Assembly (NCBI GenBank): GCA_048940445.1 | Contig: JBHLON010000008.1 | Span: forward strand, 23,134-87,133 | Direction: 5' to 3' | Length of the DNA stretch: 64,000 nt | Origin: Promethearchaeota archaeon | GTDB lineage: Archaea; Asgardarchaeota; Lokiarchaeia; Sigyniarchaeales; SOKP01 | Part shown: piece after piece, positions 34,023 through 49,823 of the stretch | How positions within the stretch are numbered: the stretch's first letter is position 1 | Layout: each line of letters opens with the position of its first letter | The notes under the pieces: generated by a model | Databases searched by the model: none | Told to the model about the DNA's origin: nothing | Seen by the model: only the letters and a program-made list of their open reading frames with translations | Program-made: the position numbers and the translations under genes

Positions 34023-36314
34023 ATGATTATGAACAATAAGTCCTTTAAATCTTATTCTTCAAAAAAAGATGTAAAAGAAAACATCGTCAACCCTTCCTAT
34101 TATGATCCTAATACCTCAAAACGTAAAATTGAAGCATCAAAATTCACAAACATAAATGATAAACCGAAAAATGTAATCAAAGCTCCAAAAGTTGAACATT
34201 TCTCTACCTCCAAAAATAAAATTAACTCTCCACATCTCGATTCCAAGCCAGAATCATTAAATAGAATCGAATCACCTACAATGGCAATAATCAGTCCAAT
34301 CAAAAATGAAACCCAACTACCACAAACTCAAGAATCCATCGATGTAGTGAAAAAATCAAGCACGTATAGTTCCCAAAAAAGTTGGAAATTTATGAATTAT
34401 GACCAAAACGGCAAAACTTTTTCTCGAGAACAAAAATTAAAAGTTGCAGAAAAATATTTCAATTCCAAGATCTTACCAAAATTAAAATTAGATACTAAAA
34501 TTAAAGAAAAATTAAAATCAGGAAAGGGAATAGGTGTCCGAGACCTTAATACACATGGATTTAGTATGTTCTATCACAGTCTTACGAATTATGGAATTAA
34601 GGTTAAGTGGAATGAATTTAAAGCATTTGTAGGGTATAAAATTAGTATCGACCAAGATAAATACCGATTCCTAAATTTCAATAAAGATGGAAACCGCTTA
34701 ACCAAGCAAGAAAAAATGAGTATTGCCAAAAAGCATTTCAAAAATACAATCTTACATGATTTAGCAAAGATACCTGAAATCAAAGAAAAGTTAAGCATGG
34801 GAAAACCACCTACATATGCAGATTTACATCGTTATGGTCATTCAGGATTTATTGGTCCTCTTAGTCAAAAAAAACCTAAAATACGATACAATGAATTATT
34901 GAGAAGTTTTGATTTTAGACCAAATGTTATTAGAGGAAAGTATAAGTTCCTAAATTACGATAAAAATGGAAATCTATTATCCTCCAGGGAGAAATTAAAT
35001 ATTGCAGTAAAACAGCTCAAGGGACATATTATCCCTACTCTTTTAGAAAAAGGAAAATATAAAGAAAGCCAACCTATTACAAGAAAGCTTCTTGATCAAC
35101 ATGGTTTCCAACACTTTACACATGCATTTGCTAATGAAGGTCCAAAAATTAACTTTAACGCATTATTAACTAAAGCTGGATATGAAATTAATATTGATCA
35201 TAAAAAATGGGTTTTTTTAAAATATAATAAAAATGGTAAAATTCTATCCGTTAAAGAGAAACTAGAGAAAGCTGTGGATTATTTTCAGAATAAAATCTAT
35301 CCGGGCTTGGTCCAAAAAGGAGTAGTAATCAAAGGTGAAGCTCCTACAACATTAGATTTAATTAAAAATGAATTTACAGATTATTTAAATGCTATTATTC
35401 AAAAAAAACCTAAAATTTCTTTTAATCAAGTCATAAAGAAAGCAGGATTTGAACCAAAATCTTCTCAAGACCACGATAAGTGGAAGATTTTCTATGATGA
35501 AAATATGAAACCATTCTCTAGAGATGGAATTTTAAAGGTTGCAGCAAAATATTTTAAGGAGAGTGTAATTCCAGATTTAATTAAAAAAAAAGCCATTGTA
35601 AAGGGTCAAAATCCAAGTGTGCATATATTAAAGAAATATGGACATTATGATTTTTTCAAGGCTATTGGAAGAAGAGGTTTGAATTATAATGAAATTCTTG
35701 TTGAAGTAGGTTATGACCCAAATTTTGCTAATAAGATGTCTGAAATCGGAGTAAACTTTCATTGGAATGCTGAAAGAATCTTTTTAGAGCATACAAGAAA
35801 TCTGAAATGTAATTCATTTTATGAAGTGAAAGGTAATGCTGATAATTCGATAATTGTTAACGAGAATTTTAAACAACTATCACTTCTTTCAAATACTTTT
35901 ACTCAAAAGCATCCTGAGATTAAAATTATTAATTTTGATTATTATTTAAGCGCAGCGAAAGAAAAGGTCTTAGAACACGGCGTAAGAGGTTATCAAGGAG
36001 AAGATAAAGCATTAATTCTTGTTCCAATCAATGCAAAAAAACCCCAAAAAATAGAATATGATTTGCCTTTTAGTTCTAACATTTTAGTGCTTAATCCCAA
36101 AACTTTTATTAATTTTATGGGTTATAAGAGCAAGATTCGGGAAGAATTCATAGAGATTATTGAACTAGCAAGAAAAGCGCCTTTTACACAGATTTGTGAA
36201 CAATTACTTCGACAAAAAGCTTTAAAGAGTGTAAAATCAATTAAATTGGTTAAAAATGATCTAAATTATTCTACTAATGAATATAGAATTTACATAAAAG
36301 AGAAAAAGGATTAA
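34023..36314 (+). CDS. Large protein with five ~90-aa tandem repeats and a C-terminal domain
   Basis: Repeats begin K[WY]xFxN[YF]xxNG; see findings. Confidence 0.85.
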   Translation: MIMNNKSFKSYSSKKDVKENIVNPSYYDPNTSKRKIEASKFTNINDKPKNVIKAPKVEHFSTSKNKINSPHLDSKPESLNRIESPTMAIISPIKNETQLPQTQESIDVVKKSSTYSSQKSWKFMNYDQNGKTFSREQKLKVAEKYFNSKILPKLKLDTKIKEKLKSGKGIGVRDLNTHGFSMFYHSLTNYGIKVKWNEFKAFVGYKISIDQDKYRFLNFNKDGNRLTKQEKMSIAKKHFKNTILHDLAKIPEIKEKLSMGKPPTYADLHRYGHSGFIGPLSQKKPKIRYNELLRSFDFRPNVIRGKYKFLNYDKNGNLLSSREKLNIAVKQLKGHIIPTLLEKGKYKESQPITRKLLDQHGFQHFTHAFANEGPKINFNALLTKAGYEINIDHKKWVFLKYNKNGKILSVKEKLEKAVDYFQNKIYPGLVQKGVVIKGEAPTTLDLIKNEFTDYLNAIIQKKPKISFNQVIKKAGFEPKSSQDHDKWKIFYDENMKPFSRDGILKVAAKYFKESVIPDLIKKKAIVKGQNPSVHILKKYGHYDFFKAIGRRGLNYNEILVEVGYDPNFANKMSEIGVNFHWNAERIFLEHTRNLKCNSFYEVKGNADNSIIVNENFKQLSLLSNTFTQKHPEIKIINFDYYLSAAKEKVLEHGVRGYQGEDKALILVPINAKKPQKIEYDLPFSSNILVLNPKTFINFMGYKSKIREEFIEIIELARKAPFTQICEQLLRQKALKSVKSIKLVKNDLNYSTNEYRIYIKEKKD
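34378..35730 (+). repeat. Five degenerate intragenic protein repeats (~85-95 aa)
   Basis: SWKFMNYDQNG / KYRFLNFNKDG / KYKFLNYDKNG / KWVFLKYNKNG / KWKIFYDENM, each ending in [WYF]N...G[YF] or similar. Confidence 0.85.
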
Positions 36315-36483
36315 ATTATTTTTTTGAAAGTAATTAATGGCTCTTGAAAAAGAAATTATAAATATTGAGAATATTATTATTAATAAAATAAAAAATAGAG
36401 CTATTATTATCTCAAATAAAAATAAGGTAATGAAAATGTGTTGGCTTAATAGGACAATAAGCTTAAGAGGTGAACCATAAAAA

Positions 36484-37273
36484 GTGCTCCATAATTTTTA
36501 TTTAATAGATCAGTATACAGGTAAAAAATAAAAGGATTTTTTTCTTATTTTCCTGAATTTGTCTGATCCATAGGAAATATGGAACCATTGAGTTTAATCA
36601 AGATTTAGTTTCAGGTTTTCTAACTGCCCTTAAAGACTTTAGTGTTGAGTTCTCAAAAGGAAGTGGTGAACTCAAAATTATAGATTGTGGATAGAGTATA
36701 TTCATAAATAAAAATATGCAGATTTTTTATCTGTTGTTGGTCTTTAAGGAGGGTGTATTATGTACTGCTGCAGCTGACAAAAATGATGATGCTAAAATTA
36801 CCCATAAAGCGTTGAGCGATATTATTGACAAATTTATTGAAGTTCATGGTGAAACAATTAAAAATTGGGGAGGTGATGTTCGTCTTTTTAGAGATTTTGA
36901 ACCAATTATAGATACAATTCTACAGGGAGGAAGGATAGCAGAAGTCCAAATGAAGATACCAATACTAAAGATTTATGAAAAAGATTTCCTTAAGTCCCGT
37001 AAGCAGATTACAAAAAAAGGTTTGATAATTTCTGAAGAAGATTTGCGAAAGTCTCAAAACCAAAAGCCTGAATGGACTTCAAAGAGATTACCAACACAAA
37101 TAATAACTCAAGGTTTTTTGGATGAACAAATGTATAAGATAGCACACTTAGCAGATGGTTTTCATACAATTTCAGATATTGCAGAAGAAAGTGGTAAACC
37201 TGAAAGTGAAATCGAAGTAATGATTGATGATTTGGATGATTTAGGGCTTTTAAAATTTATTGAGCTTAAGTAA
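36484..37273 (+). CDS. Longin-like domain + C-terminal winged-helix protein, split by two BHB introns (exons 36484-36523, 36558-36683, 36714-37273; 241 aa)
   Basis: GAGGTGA SD at 36467-36473. Spliced product MLHNFYLIDQYTGICLIHRKYGTIEFNQDLVSGFLTALKDFSVEFSKGSGELKIIDMQIFY...; C-terminal DGFHTISDIAEESG...LDDLGLLKF wHTH. Confidence 0.82.
36524..36557 (+). other. Putative mRNA intron 1 (34 nt, BHB type)
   Basis: Helix CAGG(36518-21)/CCTG(36552-55), bulges UA^A and AA^U, intron stem AAAATAA/TTATTTT, exon stem GATCAG/CTGATC. The insert contains a stop and shifts the frame. Confidence 0.82.
36684..36713 (+). other. Putative mRNA intron 2 (30 nt, BHB type)
   Basis: Helix TTAT(36678-81)/ATAA(36708-11), bulges AG^A and AA^A, 9-bp intron stem TTGTGGATA/TATTCATAA; contains in-frame TAG. 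Confidence 0.75.
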
Positions 37274-37405: not shown

Positions 37406-38872
37406 ATGAATATGAATAAAATTGATGACAATATATACGAAATACCACCAACAACGCTAATGGCACGAGTGGAAGGGAGAATTGAGAAATTTCAAATGAA
37501 GGTACCCGTCCATATTTATGCTAATGAGTATATTCTTGAAAAAATCAAACAAGATAAAACTCTTGACCAAATTGCTAATGTAGCTTGTTTAAAGGGAGTT
37601 GAAAAGCATGTTATAGCCCTCTCAGATGCTCATCAAGGCTACGGTTTTTGTATAGGAGGTGTTGCTGGGACAGATGCAGAAACAGGGATGATATCACCTG
37701 GAGGAGTTGGTTATGATATTAACTGTGGGGTAAGATTATTAAGGACAAATTTGATGATTCAAGACATAGATAACACGTTACCAAGTTTATTGAATACCAT
37801 TTTTAAAAATATACCATCTGGTTTGGGTTCCAAAGGGAAACTAAATATTAATTTTTCAGATTTAGATGATGTATTGAATACTGGAATGAATTGGACATTA
37901 GAAAATAATTATGCTATTGATGAAGATCTTAAACATTGCGAAGAAAAAGGTTGTTTGAAAGATGCTGATGCTAATTTAGTTTCCAAAAAAGCTAAGGAAA
38001 GGGGATTCAAACAACTTGGATCACTAGGGAGTGGAAATCACTTTCTTGAGATACAGAAAGTTGATGAGATTTTTAATGAATTAACGGCAAAAAAGTTAGG
38101 GATATATGAGAAAGACCAAATCACGATTATGGTTCATACAGGATCTCGGGCGCTTGGACATCAAGTTTGTACCGATTCGTTACGAAGTGTAGAAAGAGCA
38201 ATGAAGAAATACAACATAAAAGTACCAGATCGTGAATTAGCATGCGTTCCTGCAGACACTCCTGAAGCTCAAAATTATCTAAGTCAAATGGCTTGTGCGG
38301 CAAATTTTGGATTTGCTAATCGTCAGTTGATTACTCATTGGTTACGAGAATCTTTTCAACAACATTTCAAAGGGGAGGATTTAGATTTGCAATTGGTATA
38401 TGGAGTATGTCACAATATTCTGAAGATTGAAGAGCATGAAATAAATGGGAAAAAAGTGAATTTAAATGTACATCGTAAGGGTGCTACTAGGGCTTTTCCC
38501 CCTGGGCATCCAGTACTTCCTCAAGAGTATAGAGATATAGGACAACCAGTATTAATTCCGGGTACCATGGGTAGCGCTTCATATCTTTGTGTAGGGAAGC
38601 CCAAATCAATGGAACTTTCTTTTGGGTCTACTGCTCATGGATCGGGAAGAATTATGTCTAGATCTAAAGCGATTTCAAAATATAGGGGGTCTATAGTAAG
38701 AGAAGATCTCAATAATCGAGGTATTTTAATTAAAGCAGCATCAATGAAAGTAATTGCCGAAGAAGCCCCAGGTGCTTATAAAGATATCGATCAAGTTGTT
38801 CAAGTAAGTCATGATTTAGACATTGTTGAAAAGATTGTAAGATTAGTCCCGATTGGTGTTGTAAAAGGTTAG
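37406..38872 (+). CDS. rtcB: RNA-splicing ligase RtcB
   Basis: DAHQGYG, VGYDINCGVR, LGSLGSGNHF, HTGSR, HNI, HRKGAT, PGTMG, HGSGR, EEAPGAYKD, VVKG. Confidence 0.97.
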   Translation: MNMNKIDDNIYEIPPTTLMARVEGRIEKFQMKVPVHIYANEYILEKIKQDKTLDQIANVACLKGVEKHVIALSDAHQGYGFCIGGVAGTDAETGMISPGGVGYDINCGVRLLRTNLMIQDIDNTLPSLLNTIFKNIPSGLGSKGKLNINFSDLDDVLNTGMNWTLENNYAIDEDLKHCEEKGCLKDADANLVSKKAKERGFKQLGSLGSGNHFLEIQKVDEIFNELTAKKLGIYEKDQITIMVHTGSRALGHQVCTDSLRSVERAMKKYNIKVPDRELACVPADTPEAQNYLSQMACAANFGFANRQLITHWLRESFQQHFKGEDLDLQLVYGVCHNILKIEEHEINGKKVNLNVHRKGATRAFPPGHPVLPQEYRDIGQPVLIPGTMGSASYLCVGKPKSMELSFGSTAHGSGRIMSRSKAISKYRGSIVREDLNNRGILIKAASMKVIAEEAPGAYKDIDQVVQVSHDLDIVEKIVRLVPIGVVKG

Positions 38873-38879
38873 TTTACAT

Positions 38880-39317
38880 TTAGATATCGAATATAATCTC
38901 GATTTCAAATTTATCTTTTTTTTCTTGTATATTCATATATGAATAAGTAACCGCTTTTACTTCAGTCCCAATTTCATGTTTATTTTTATCAAATTTCTCT
39001 CCTTTAACAATAGATTTTAGATAATAGTCATTATTTGTTATCGTTATCAAATCAACTATAATATCGCTAAAAATTAATCCTTCTACGTCAAAAAAATATA
39101 GAAATTCAGAGAGATAGTCAAATAATAAAGAATATATATCTTCTGATGTTACTTCAATATTCTTTTCAATAAATGGTGATACTTTTTTTAAATCTGGAGA
39201 CATTATAGCCATTAAACTTAAAGCTGTTTGTGTAAATGCTTCTTCTAAAGTTGTTCCCCAACTTCTCACTTTAATGTCTGCAGTATGTTCTTTAAATTCA
39301 AATCCTGCTTTCTTCAT
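38880..39317 (-). CDS. Archease (RtcB cofactor)
   Basis: EHTADI, EVKAVTY, C-terminal FDI. Confidence 0.95.
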   Translation of the reverse strand: MKKAGFEFKEHTADIKVRSWGTTLEEAFTQTALSLMAIMSPDLKKVSPFIEKNIEVTSEDIYSLLFDYLSEFLYFFDVEGLIFSDIIVDLITITNNDYYLKSIVKGEKFDKNKHEIGTEVKAVTYSYMNIQEKKDKFEIEIIFDI

Positions 39318-49738: not shown

Positions 49739-49823
49739 TGCAGGGGGAGGGATTTGAACCCTCGAACTCCTATGAGACTAGAGCCTCGGTCTAGCACCGT
49801 TGACCAGGCTTGGCTACCCCTGC
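49739..49823 (-). tRNA. tRNA-Leu(GAG)
   Basis: Cloverleaf GCAGGGG/CCCCTGC, long variable arm, anticodon loop CCGAGGC. Confidence 0.9.

What the first reader, a model, noticed from the sequence alone, without database searches (positions are those of the whole stretch)
36484..37273. Protein-coding gene split by two bulge-helix-bulge introns: candidate pre-mRNA splicing in an Asgard archaeon
Seen: the tracked 185-aa ORF lacks the first half of its longin-like domain. That half lies upstream in two pieces behind a GAGGTGA SD and a GTG start. Insert 1 (36524-36557, 34 nt, stop + frameshift) forms helix CAGG/CCTG with 3-nt bulges UAA and AAU, an intron stem and an exon-exon stem GATCAG/CTGATC. Insert 2 (36684-36713, 30 nt, in-frame TAG) forms helix UUAU/AUAA with bulges AGA and AAA and a 9-bp intron stem; its exon-exon pairing is weak. 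Established: archaeal EndA cuts after the 2nd nt of each BHB bulge. Applying that rule gives GGT A|TT TGT (G-I-C) and ATA G|AT ATG (I-D-M), a seamless 241-aa ORF. Two independent junctions obeying the rule is unlikely by chance. Established: BHB mRNA introns are known mainly from crenarchaeal cbf5. Inference: I know of no multi-intron mRNA in Asgard archaea, and here it affects a eukaryotic-signature-type protein. Gene callers would truncate such genes, so more may be hidden genome-wide.
Basis: partly seen in the sequence, partly recalled or inferred. Interest (0 to 1): 0.96.

Follow-up and report, generated by a model that had tools for sequence, protein, structure and literature searches.

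The report
tRNA-type mini-introns split Asgard longin gene
A gene of an Asgard (Loki-type) archaeon is broken by two roughly 30-base inserts shaped like tRNA introns, and at least 12 other genes of this genome, some essential, carry the same kind, so this lineage almost certainly splices many messenger RNAs with its tRNA-splicing enzymes, which the papers I could search show inside only one archaeal coding gene.

Summary
Confirmed. Removing 36524-36557 and 36684-36713 by the EndA rule gives a 241-aa longin/winged-helix protein that aligns without gaps to about 130 intronless orthologs. Fourteen other orthologs carry similar inserts at three sites (21 with the window's two). All are disruptive, follow the cut rule and show compensatory pairing. 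Exons 1-2 are under purifying selection. The inserts are genomic. New here: (1) intron 2's weak exon stem is replaced by two exon hairpins, kept mainly in intron-bearing alleles (14/14 and 12/14, against 9/131 and 20/131). (2) Presence or absence changes together with whole 5' blocks of exon sequence, which points to exchange by recombination rather than precise loss. (3) A motif-free comparison with a relative, plus leads I checked, gives 15 such inserts in 13 genes, including single-copy metG, dnaG, mvk and uL11. uL11 is split in many genomes of one family and in none of 15 outside it. EndA (two subunits), RtcB and archease are encoded. Splicing itself was not observed, because no RNA run was available. 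An XBP1-like switch is not supported. This scan reported the same class on other genomes before. In print I found only cbf5 and a Haloferax 5'UTR.

The parts
36467..36473 (+). Shine-Dalgarno-like GAGGTGA, 10 nt before the GTG
   Evidence: sequence; similar motifs upstream in most orthologs
36484..36523 (+). Exon 1 (GTG start, 13 codons + 1 nt)
   Evidence: matches the N-terminus of intronless orthologs; synonymous changes exceed nonsynonymous; only 68% identical to the closest relative, against 89-97% for the rest
36524..36557 (+). BHB intron 1, 34 nt, in-frame TAA (36529-36531) and frameshift; helix 36518-36521 with 36552-36555; bulges 36522-36524 and 36556-36558; exon stem 36508-36513 with 36563-36568
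   Evidence: same site occupied in L003 (helix changed on both sides to CGGG/CCCG) and L004
36558..36683 (+). Exon 2 (126 nt), first half of the longin domain
   Evidence: near-invariant protein; 5-22 synonymous against 0-2 nonsynonymous codon changes versus five relatives
36647..36673 (+). Hairpin in exon 2 next to intron 2 (36647-36654 with 36665-36673)
   Evidence: 8/8 pairs in 14/14 alleles with this intron, 9/131 without
36684..36713 (+). BHB intron 2, 30 nt, in-frame TAG (36692-36694); helix 36678-36681 with 36708-36711; bulges 36682-36684 and 36712-36714; stem 36685-36693 with 36699-36707
   Evidence: same site occupied in 13 other orthologs, helix 4/4 in all; compensatory changes
36714..37273 (+). 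Exon 3: rest of the longin domain, linker and C-terminal winged helix; contains the 185-aa ORF from ATG 36716 that gene callers report
36718..36734 (+). Hairpin in exon 3 next to intron 2 (36718-36723 with 36729-36734), with compensatory synonymous changes
   Evidence: 6/6 pairs in 12/14 alleles with this intron, 20/131 without
37406..38872 (+). rtcB, RNA ligase expected to join the exons
   Evidence: PF01139 E 5e-168; downstream of the gene in 68 of 80 loci, with or without introns
38880..39317 (-). archease, RtcB activator, convergent with rtcB
   Evidence: PF01951 E 8e-43

Best explanation
The two inserts are true bulge-helix-bulge introns in a messenger RNA. The transcript folds locally so that the last four exon bases before each 5' bulge pair with the 3' end of the intron. 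The two-subunit EndA endonuclease cuts after the second base of each bulge, and RtcB with archease joins the exons, giving an mRNA for a 241-aa longin/winged-helix protein. Unspliced RNA stops after about 15 codons. At intron 2 the exon side is one base pair plus two exon hairpins, a relaxed motif. The gene is one of at least 13 in this genome with such introns. They behave as tolerated, probably selfish, inserts at conserved sites, and their presence is exchanged between lineages by homologous recombination of surrounding blocks. SHOWN: the inserts, their geometry, covariation, selection on exons, single-copy essential genes only in split form, the enzymes encoded, and mosaic alleles. INFERRED: cleavage and ligation in the cell, which enzymes do it, the direction of allele exchange, how the inserts first arise, and the protein's role (probably a small-GTPase-associated regulator, from the longin fold).
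For: 67 of 79 orthologs are continuous across both junctions. 21 inserts at 3 sites in 15 genes all give 241 aa by the cut rule, 17 with a 4/4 helix and 4 with 3/4, and all are disruptive. For 13 site-2 introns, 95% of cells pair and 9 pairs change on both sides; 0/500 shuffles reach this and slid controls pair 37-47%. The helix-forming exon codons occur in 14/14 intron alleles and 21/131 others. Motif-free census against a relative: of 37 well-anchored inserts, the 10 with BHB score of 13 or more are all disruptive, and none of 14 stop-free in-frame inserts reaches 13. metG, dnaG, mvk and uL11 are single-copy and split. 18 of 30 uL11 loci carry 1-3 inserts at four or more sites. Two EndA paralogs are present, one with the Tyr/His/Lys catalytic residues; Asgard EndA is reported as the broad-specificity two-subunit type (PMC5829648). 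Mosaic alleles: L392 (no intron) against L388-L391 (two introns) is 71-87% identical over nt 1-260 and 97-100% over nt 260-550.
Against: No spliced read or cDNA was seen for this gene. Several motifs are relaxed (a single exon pair at intron 2; 3/4 helices at the third site), and EndA activity on them is untested. A motif-only genome scan does not separate true from decoy geometry (517 against 481), so detection depends on homology and favours conserved sites. The sequences are related, so shuffle controls overstate significance.
Confidence: 0.93

Rival explanations
1. Regulated switch: splicing of this mRNA senses RtcB/EndA capacity and controls a regulator, in the manner of HAC1/XBP1. This is compatible with the introns being real.
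For: The gene lies directly upstream of rtcB and archease. It has three independent intron sites in its first 170 nt. All eight 3n-length BHB inserts of the census carry an in-frame stop (joint p about 0.014 under shuffling). The gene uses weak start codons.
Against: About 88% of orthologs have no intron and keep the same synteny (58/68 against 10/12). Intron status differs among near-identical alleles. The same inserts occur in unrelated housekeeping genes, and one (Rab-like GTPase) showed at that site only in this genome among the 41 genus genomes with a match.
Confidence: 0.12
2. Translational bypass: ribosomes hop or frameshift over the hairpin inserts, and the RNA is not cut.
For: Each insert is a hairpin containing a stop codon, as in known bypass signals (own knowledge). 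No RNA data exclude it.
Against: All inserts fall inside codons at phase 1 here, with no matched take-off and landing codons. The conserved feature is the exon-to-intron 4-bp helix with two 3-nt bulges, which covaries. Lengths of 21-38 nt in all three frames fit one cutting rule.
Confidence: 0.03
3. The gene is a pseudogene, or only the 185-aa product of exon 3 is made.
For: Databases list a 185-aa product.
Against: Exons 1-2 stay under strong purifying selection in intron-bearing lineages (window against L004: 11 synonymous and 0 nonsynonymous changes in exon 2). There is no SD before ATG 36716. Essential single-copy genes are split in the same way.
Confidence: 0.02
4. Assembly artefact, or removal at the DNA level in part of the population.
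For: Intronless alleles exist among close relatives.
Against: The inserts are in contigs of four runs with no skipping joint. Homologous but diverged inserts occur in independent assemblies. The intronless alleles differ throughout the 5' block, so they are not excision products.
Confidence: 0.01

Closest known systems
cbf5 pre-mRNA BHB intron of Crenarchaeota (Watanabe 2002; Yoshinari 2006; Yokobori 2009, PMC2738675)
   Same: Small intron inside a coding sequence at a conserved site, BHB or relaxed BHB, cut between the 2nd and 3rd bulge base, patchy presence, host with a two-subunit EndA.
   Different: cbf5 is one intron at one site in one gene; that paper says introns in other genes were only predicted. 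Here there are two introns in one mRNA, three sites in the gene family, at least 13 genes in one genome, lengths clustered near 30 nt, and a different phylum. cbf5 splicing is shown by experiment; this is not.
BHB intron in the 5' UTR of Haloferax HVO_1309 (Schwarz 2020, PMC7714728)
   Same: EndA-cut BHB element in an mRNA.
   Different: It lies outside the coding sequence and is a single case.
Non-canonical tRNA introns of Asgard archaea (bioRxiv 10.64898/2026.10.13.758758)
   Same: Repeated gains of short BHB inserts missed by annotators; two EndA paralogs; route of arrival unknown.
   Different: That paper covers tRNA genes only: 'mRNA' occurs 0 times in its text.
Eukaryotic IRE1/RtcB splicing of XBP1 and HAC1 mRNA (own knowledge)
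   Same: A small frame-disrupting intron removed by a protein endonuclease and a tRNA ligase.
   Different: That system has a dedicated stress sensor, two stem-loops rather than a BHB, and one regulated target. Nothing here shows regulation.
Longin-domain proteins (Sec22b, AP sigma, TRAPP) and GATOR1/SEA chains
   Same: Best Foldseek matches to the model: Sec22b longin E 7e-5; chains of SEA/GATOR1 complexes aligned over about 290 columns at E 1e-4 to 1e-3. Weak Pfam Longin and winged-helix hits.
   Different: The model has pLDDT 61, TM-scores by query are 0.2-0.4, and identity is 10-15%. Function and partner are not shown.

Membership tests
Archaeal BHB introns (EndA/RtcB) | 4-bp central helix between the 5' exon end and the intron 3' end, with two 3-nt bulges on opposite strands | tested here: met
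   Both inserts 4/4; 17 of 21 ortholog inserts 4/4, four 3/4; covariation
Archaeal BHB introns (EndA/RtcB) | Cutting after the second bulge base restores the functional sequence | tested here: met
   241 aa, gap-free against intronless orthologs, in all 15 genes
Archaeal BHB introns (EndA/RtcB) | Intron-side outer helix | tested here: met
   11/12 and 9/9 pairs; five pairs change on both sides at site 2
Archaeal BHB introns (EndA/RtcB) | Exon-side outer helix (strict hBHBh') | tested here: inconclusive
   Intron 1: 1 pair, a loop, then 6 pairs. Intron 2: 1 pair plus two exon hairpins. These are relaxed forms, which are known substrates of two-subunit EndA.
Archaeal BHB introns (EndA/RtcB) | Host encodes EndA, RtcB and archease | tested here: met
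   Two PF01974 genes on C3 and C62; rtcB and archease in the window
Archaeal BHB introns (EndA/RtcB) | Spliced RNA or excised intron circle observed; cleavage by EndA in vitro | not testable with these tools
   No RNA holder listed for this stretch
Group I/II self-splicing or homing-endonuclease introns | Ribozyme core or intron-encoded protein | tested here: not met
   Inserts are 21-38 nt hairpins with no ORF; insert 1 has no other copy in the genome
HAC1/XBP1-type regulated splicing | Intron conserved across the gene family and splicing tied to a signal | tested here: not met
   130 of 147 orthologs have no intron; signal dependence could not be tested
Longin-domain proteins | Longin fold in the N-terminal ~125 residues | tested here: met
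   Foldseek to Sec22b, probability 1.00, TM 0.62 by target, on a low-confidence model
NPRL2/GATOR1 subunits | GAP activity or complex with Rag-type GTPases | not tested
   Only weak whole-length structural resemblance

The most novel reading that the evidence does not exclude
One family of Lokiarchaeia routinely splices dozens of protein-coding mRNAs, including essential and multi-intron ones, with the tRNA endonuclease and ligase. The introns form a class of roughly 30-nt, stop-carrying hairpin elements that are still being gained and exchanged between species by recombination at conserved sites. This is a non-spliceosomal intron proliferation in the archaeal group closest to eukaryotes, and current gene calling misses it.
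Probability: 0.85. Interest if true: 0.92.

Novelty: new variant of a known kind. Interest (0 to 1): 0.86.

Why it matters
In the papers I could search, splicing inside an archaeal coding sequence is documented for one gene. Here it appears to be needed for tRNA charging, primase, mevalonate kinase, a ribosomal protein and small GTPases in a whole Asgard family. That changes the picture of gene structure in the relatives of eukaryotes. It gives an observable case of introns arriving in and leaving protein-coding genes without a spliceosome, and it offers precise substrates for a simple in vitro test. It also means that Asgard gene catalogues, including eukaryotic-signature proteins, contain truncated or missed genes. 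The restriction to one family in the uL11 survey may explain why cultured Asgard strains have not revealed it (inference).

Tried and rejected
RNA evidence: no RNA holder was listed, and the one read-laying run used four runs taken as DNA; this says nothing about expression. Search for spliced transcripts among database proteins: no full-length protein identical to a spliced product was found. One 761-nt intronless contig (L382) has intron-type flanks, but its RNA or DNA origin is unknown and its 3' part matches another lineage, so I did not count it. DNA-level gap listing against the relative was too noisy at 78% identity. The de novo BHB plus ORF-fusion scan gave as many decoys as hits. The shared-intron scan gave 15 hits against 12 decoys, of which only mvk and a GH38-like gene are convincing. 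My first reading, an old intron lost precisely through cDNA, was suggested by parsimony (14 changes) and by intron distance tracking the gene tree (Mantel rho 0.61). I dropped it as the main route: intronless near-relatives differ over the whole 5' block, and no RVT_1 reverse transcriptase was found in this 93%-complete genome. The promoter/terminator scan was at chance level and uses a bacterial model. The Atlas search returned only unnamed Asgard clusters. Six literature searches found no report of Asgard mRNA introns (also 107); most subscription journals are not covered. No complex prediction was run, because no binding claim is made. My notebook says 22 inserts; the correct count is 21.

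Full report
Observation. The window is G000:C94:23134-87133. Its orthologs come from Promethearchaeota (Lokiarchaeia) assemblies. Removing 36524-36557 and 36684-36713 gives a 241-aa ORF from GTG 36484. A shuffled insert in coding DNA of this genome meets the same standard in 0.04% of placements. The inserts are present in contigs of four runs taken as DNA, with no skipping joint.

Orthologs. Of 79 genome loci with upstream sequence, 67 are continuous and match the joined product without a gap. With metagenome loci added, 15 genes carry 21 inserts at three sites: nt 34, 40 and 166 of the coding sequence. All give 241 aa when cut after the second bulge base, and all carry a stop or a frameshift. 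The central helix covaries: CAGG/CCTG becomes CGGG/CCCG, and TTAT/ATAA becomes TCAT/GTGA. Over 13 introns at site 166, 95% of cells pair and nine pairs change on both sides; no shuffle reaches this and slid controls pair under 50%. Exons 1 and 2 change almost only at synonymous positions, also between intron-bearing lineages, so they are translated.

Exon architecture. Alignment folding shows one closing pair and a hairpin in each flanking exon. These hairpins are complete in 14/14 and 12/14 alleles with this intron, but in 9/131 and 20/131 without it. The helix-forming codons occur in 14/14 against 21/131. Synonymous sites are therefore constrained where the intron exists, which is what selection on an RNA substrate predicts. 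The sequences are related, so these counts are not independent trials.

History. Intron 2 is scattered over the gene tree (14 parsimony changes), yet intron sequence distance follows gene distance (rho 0.61). Near-identical alleles help to resolve this. L392 (no intron) and L388-L391 (two introns) are 97-100% identical over nt 260-550 but 71-87% over nt 1-260. The window's exon 1 is 68% identical to that of its closest relative, which lacks intron 1, against 89-97% elsewhere. Presence and absence thus change with blocks of flanking sequence. This fits homologous recombination between lineages better than precise loss through cDNA; no RVT_1 gene was found. The direction of exchange and the origin of the inserts remain open. 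Insert 1 has no other copy in the genome.

Genome-wide. I fetched about 2.3 Mb of a relative (G019) and aligned proteins to DNA with free insertions, without using the motif; 1.84 Mb of G000 aligned. This recovered both inserts and found four more: in a small Zn-ribbon-like gene, an AIR-synthase-like gene, a Rab-like GTPase (just before WDxAG) and a low-molecular-weight phosphatase (in the catalytic loop). It also found at least four different ones in G019. Of 37 well-anchored inserts, the ten with a strong BHB are all disruptive and none of the 14 stop-free in-frame inserts has one; all eight 3n-length BHB inserts carry a stop. Leads from other readers of this genome were then checked: metG, dnaG, mvk, fwdA, a rubredoxin, uL11 (two) and an RHH gene all hold such inserts, and metG, dnaG, mvk and uL11 have no intact second copy. 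For metG, dnaG, mvk, fwdA, the rubredoxin and the RHH gene the junctions were judged by geometry and restored motifs, not against intronless orthologs. With a GH38-like gene shared with G019, the total is 15 inserts in 13 genes, 21-38 nt long with a mode at 30. A few dozen per genome is my estimate. uL11 carries 1-3 inserts at four or more sites in 18 of 30 loci of the genus. In a class-wide survey its N-terminal domain is split or shortened in many genomes of the same family and whole in all 15 genomes of other families.

Machinery and mechanism. The genome encodes two EndA paralogs, one with the catalytic Tyr, His and Lys and one without the His. This fits the broad-specificity two-subunit type reported for Asgard archaea (PMC5829648). 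rtcB and archease follow the gene directly. The best explanation is EndA cleavage and RtcB/archease ligation of the pre-mRNA (0.93). Cleavage, ligation and enzyme identity are inferred; no RNA run was available.

The protein. A low-confidence model (pLDDT 61) matches longin domains best (Sec22b E 7e-5) and SEA/GATOR1 chains weakly over the whole length; Pfam gives weak winged-helix hits. A role with small GTPases is an inference. The neighbourhood of rtcB invites an XBP1-like reading, but synteny is the same with and without introns, most orthologs are intronless, and unrelated genes carry the same inserts, so I give it 0.12. Separately, the family mostly starts at near-cognate codons (ATT 41, TTG 40, ATC 31, ATG 10 of 147 at the aligned position), while an ATG lies near the start of the neighbouring rtcB in 62 of 67 loci.

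Comparison and novelty. In print, the cbf5 intron is the confirmed coding-sequence case and others were only predicted (PMC2738675). A Haloferax 5' UTR intron is the second mRNA case, and that paper calls cbf5 the only other example (PMC7714728). A 2026 preprint on Asgard introns covers tRNAs only. The mechanism is known; the scale, the multi-intron mRNAs, the essential targets, the uniform size and the allele exchange are not in the papers I could search. This scan has reported the same class in other genomes, and one note cites RNA support that I did not check. Verdict: new variant of a known kind, interest 0.86.

Noticed in passing
window 36484-36486 and orthologs: The gene family mostly uses near-cognate start codons behind a strong SD (ATT 41, TTG 40, ATC 31, ATG 10, GTT 6, GTG 5, ACG 4 of 147), unlike the neighbouring rtcB; this may be translational control.
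   Followed up: partly
window 34023-36314: 763-aa lysine-rich repeat ORF with no Pfam hit; a homolog lies near this locus in only about 9 of 80 relatives and is absent at this place in the closest relative (L343); possibly a mobile insertion.
   Followed up: partly
window 37406-39317: rtcB and archease are convergent, 7 nt apart, in most relatives.
   Followed up: partly
G000 C134:+109550, C61:+8911, C72:-22765, C84:-60595, C78:+67401: BHB inserts in a Zn-ribbon-like gene, an AIR-synthase-like gene, a Rab-like GTPase, a low-molecular-weight phosphatase (21 nt) and a GH38-like gene.
   Followed up: yes
L231, L297, L273, L276, L255 (G019): The relative has its own 29-30 nt inserts in a Rag-like GTPase, an Fe-S enzyme, an MglA-like GTPase, a nucleoside-phosphorylase-like gene and one more gene (weaker helix); names are from motifs, not searched.
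   Followed up: partly
G055:C3:37730, G057:C1:34078, G022:C121:3087: Orthologs of the Rab-like GTPase with a stop inside the match and a missing N-terminus; possibly further introns near the start.
   Followed up: no
L382 (ENA ERZ25073481, 761 nt): Intronless copy that spans little more than the gene and keeps intron-type exon flanks; either a spliced transcript or a recombinant allele.
   Followed up: partly
L388-L391: Near-identical alleles carry two unrelated-looking intron sequences at the same site (nt 34), each with its own exon 1.
   Followed up: partly
G000 whole genome: ARAGORN finds only 20 tRNA genes, 10 with introns, so many tRNA genes are probably multiply interrupted or unassembled.
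   Followed up: no
L347 3238-3240: rtcB of one metagenome contig has a TAG in place of a Trp codon, with no insert; sequencing error or pseudogene.
   Followed up: partly
window 49739-49823: tRNA-Leu(GAG) without a called intron; the protein comparison with G019 found no other BHB insert on this contig.
   Followed up: partly
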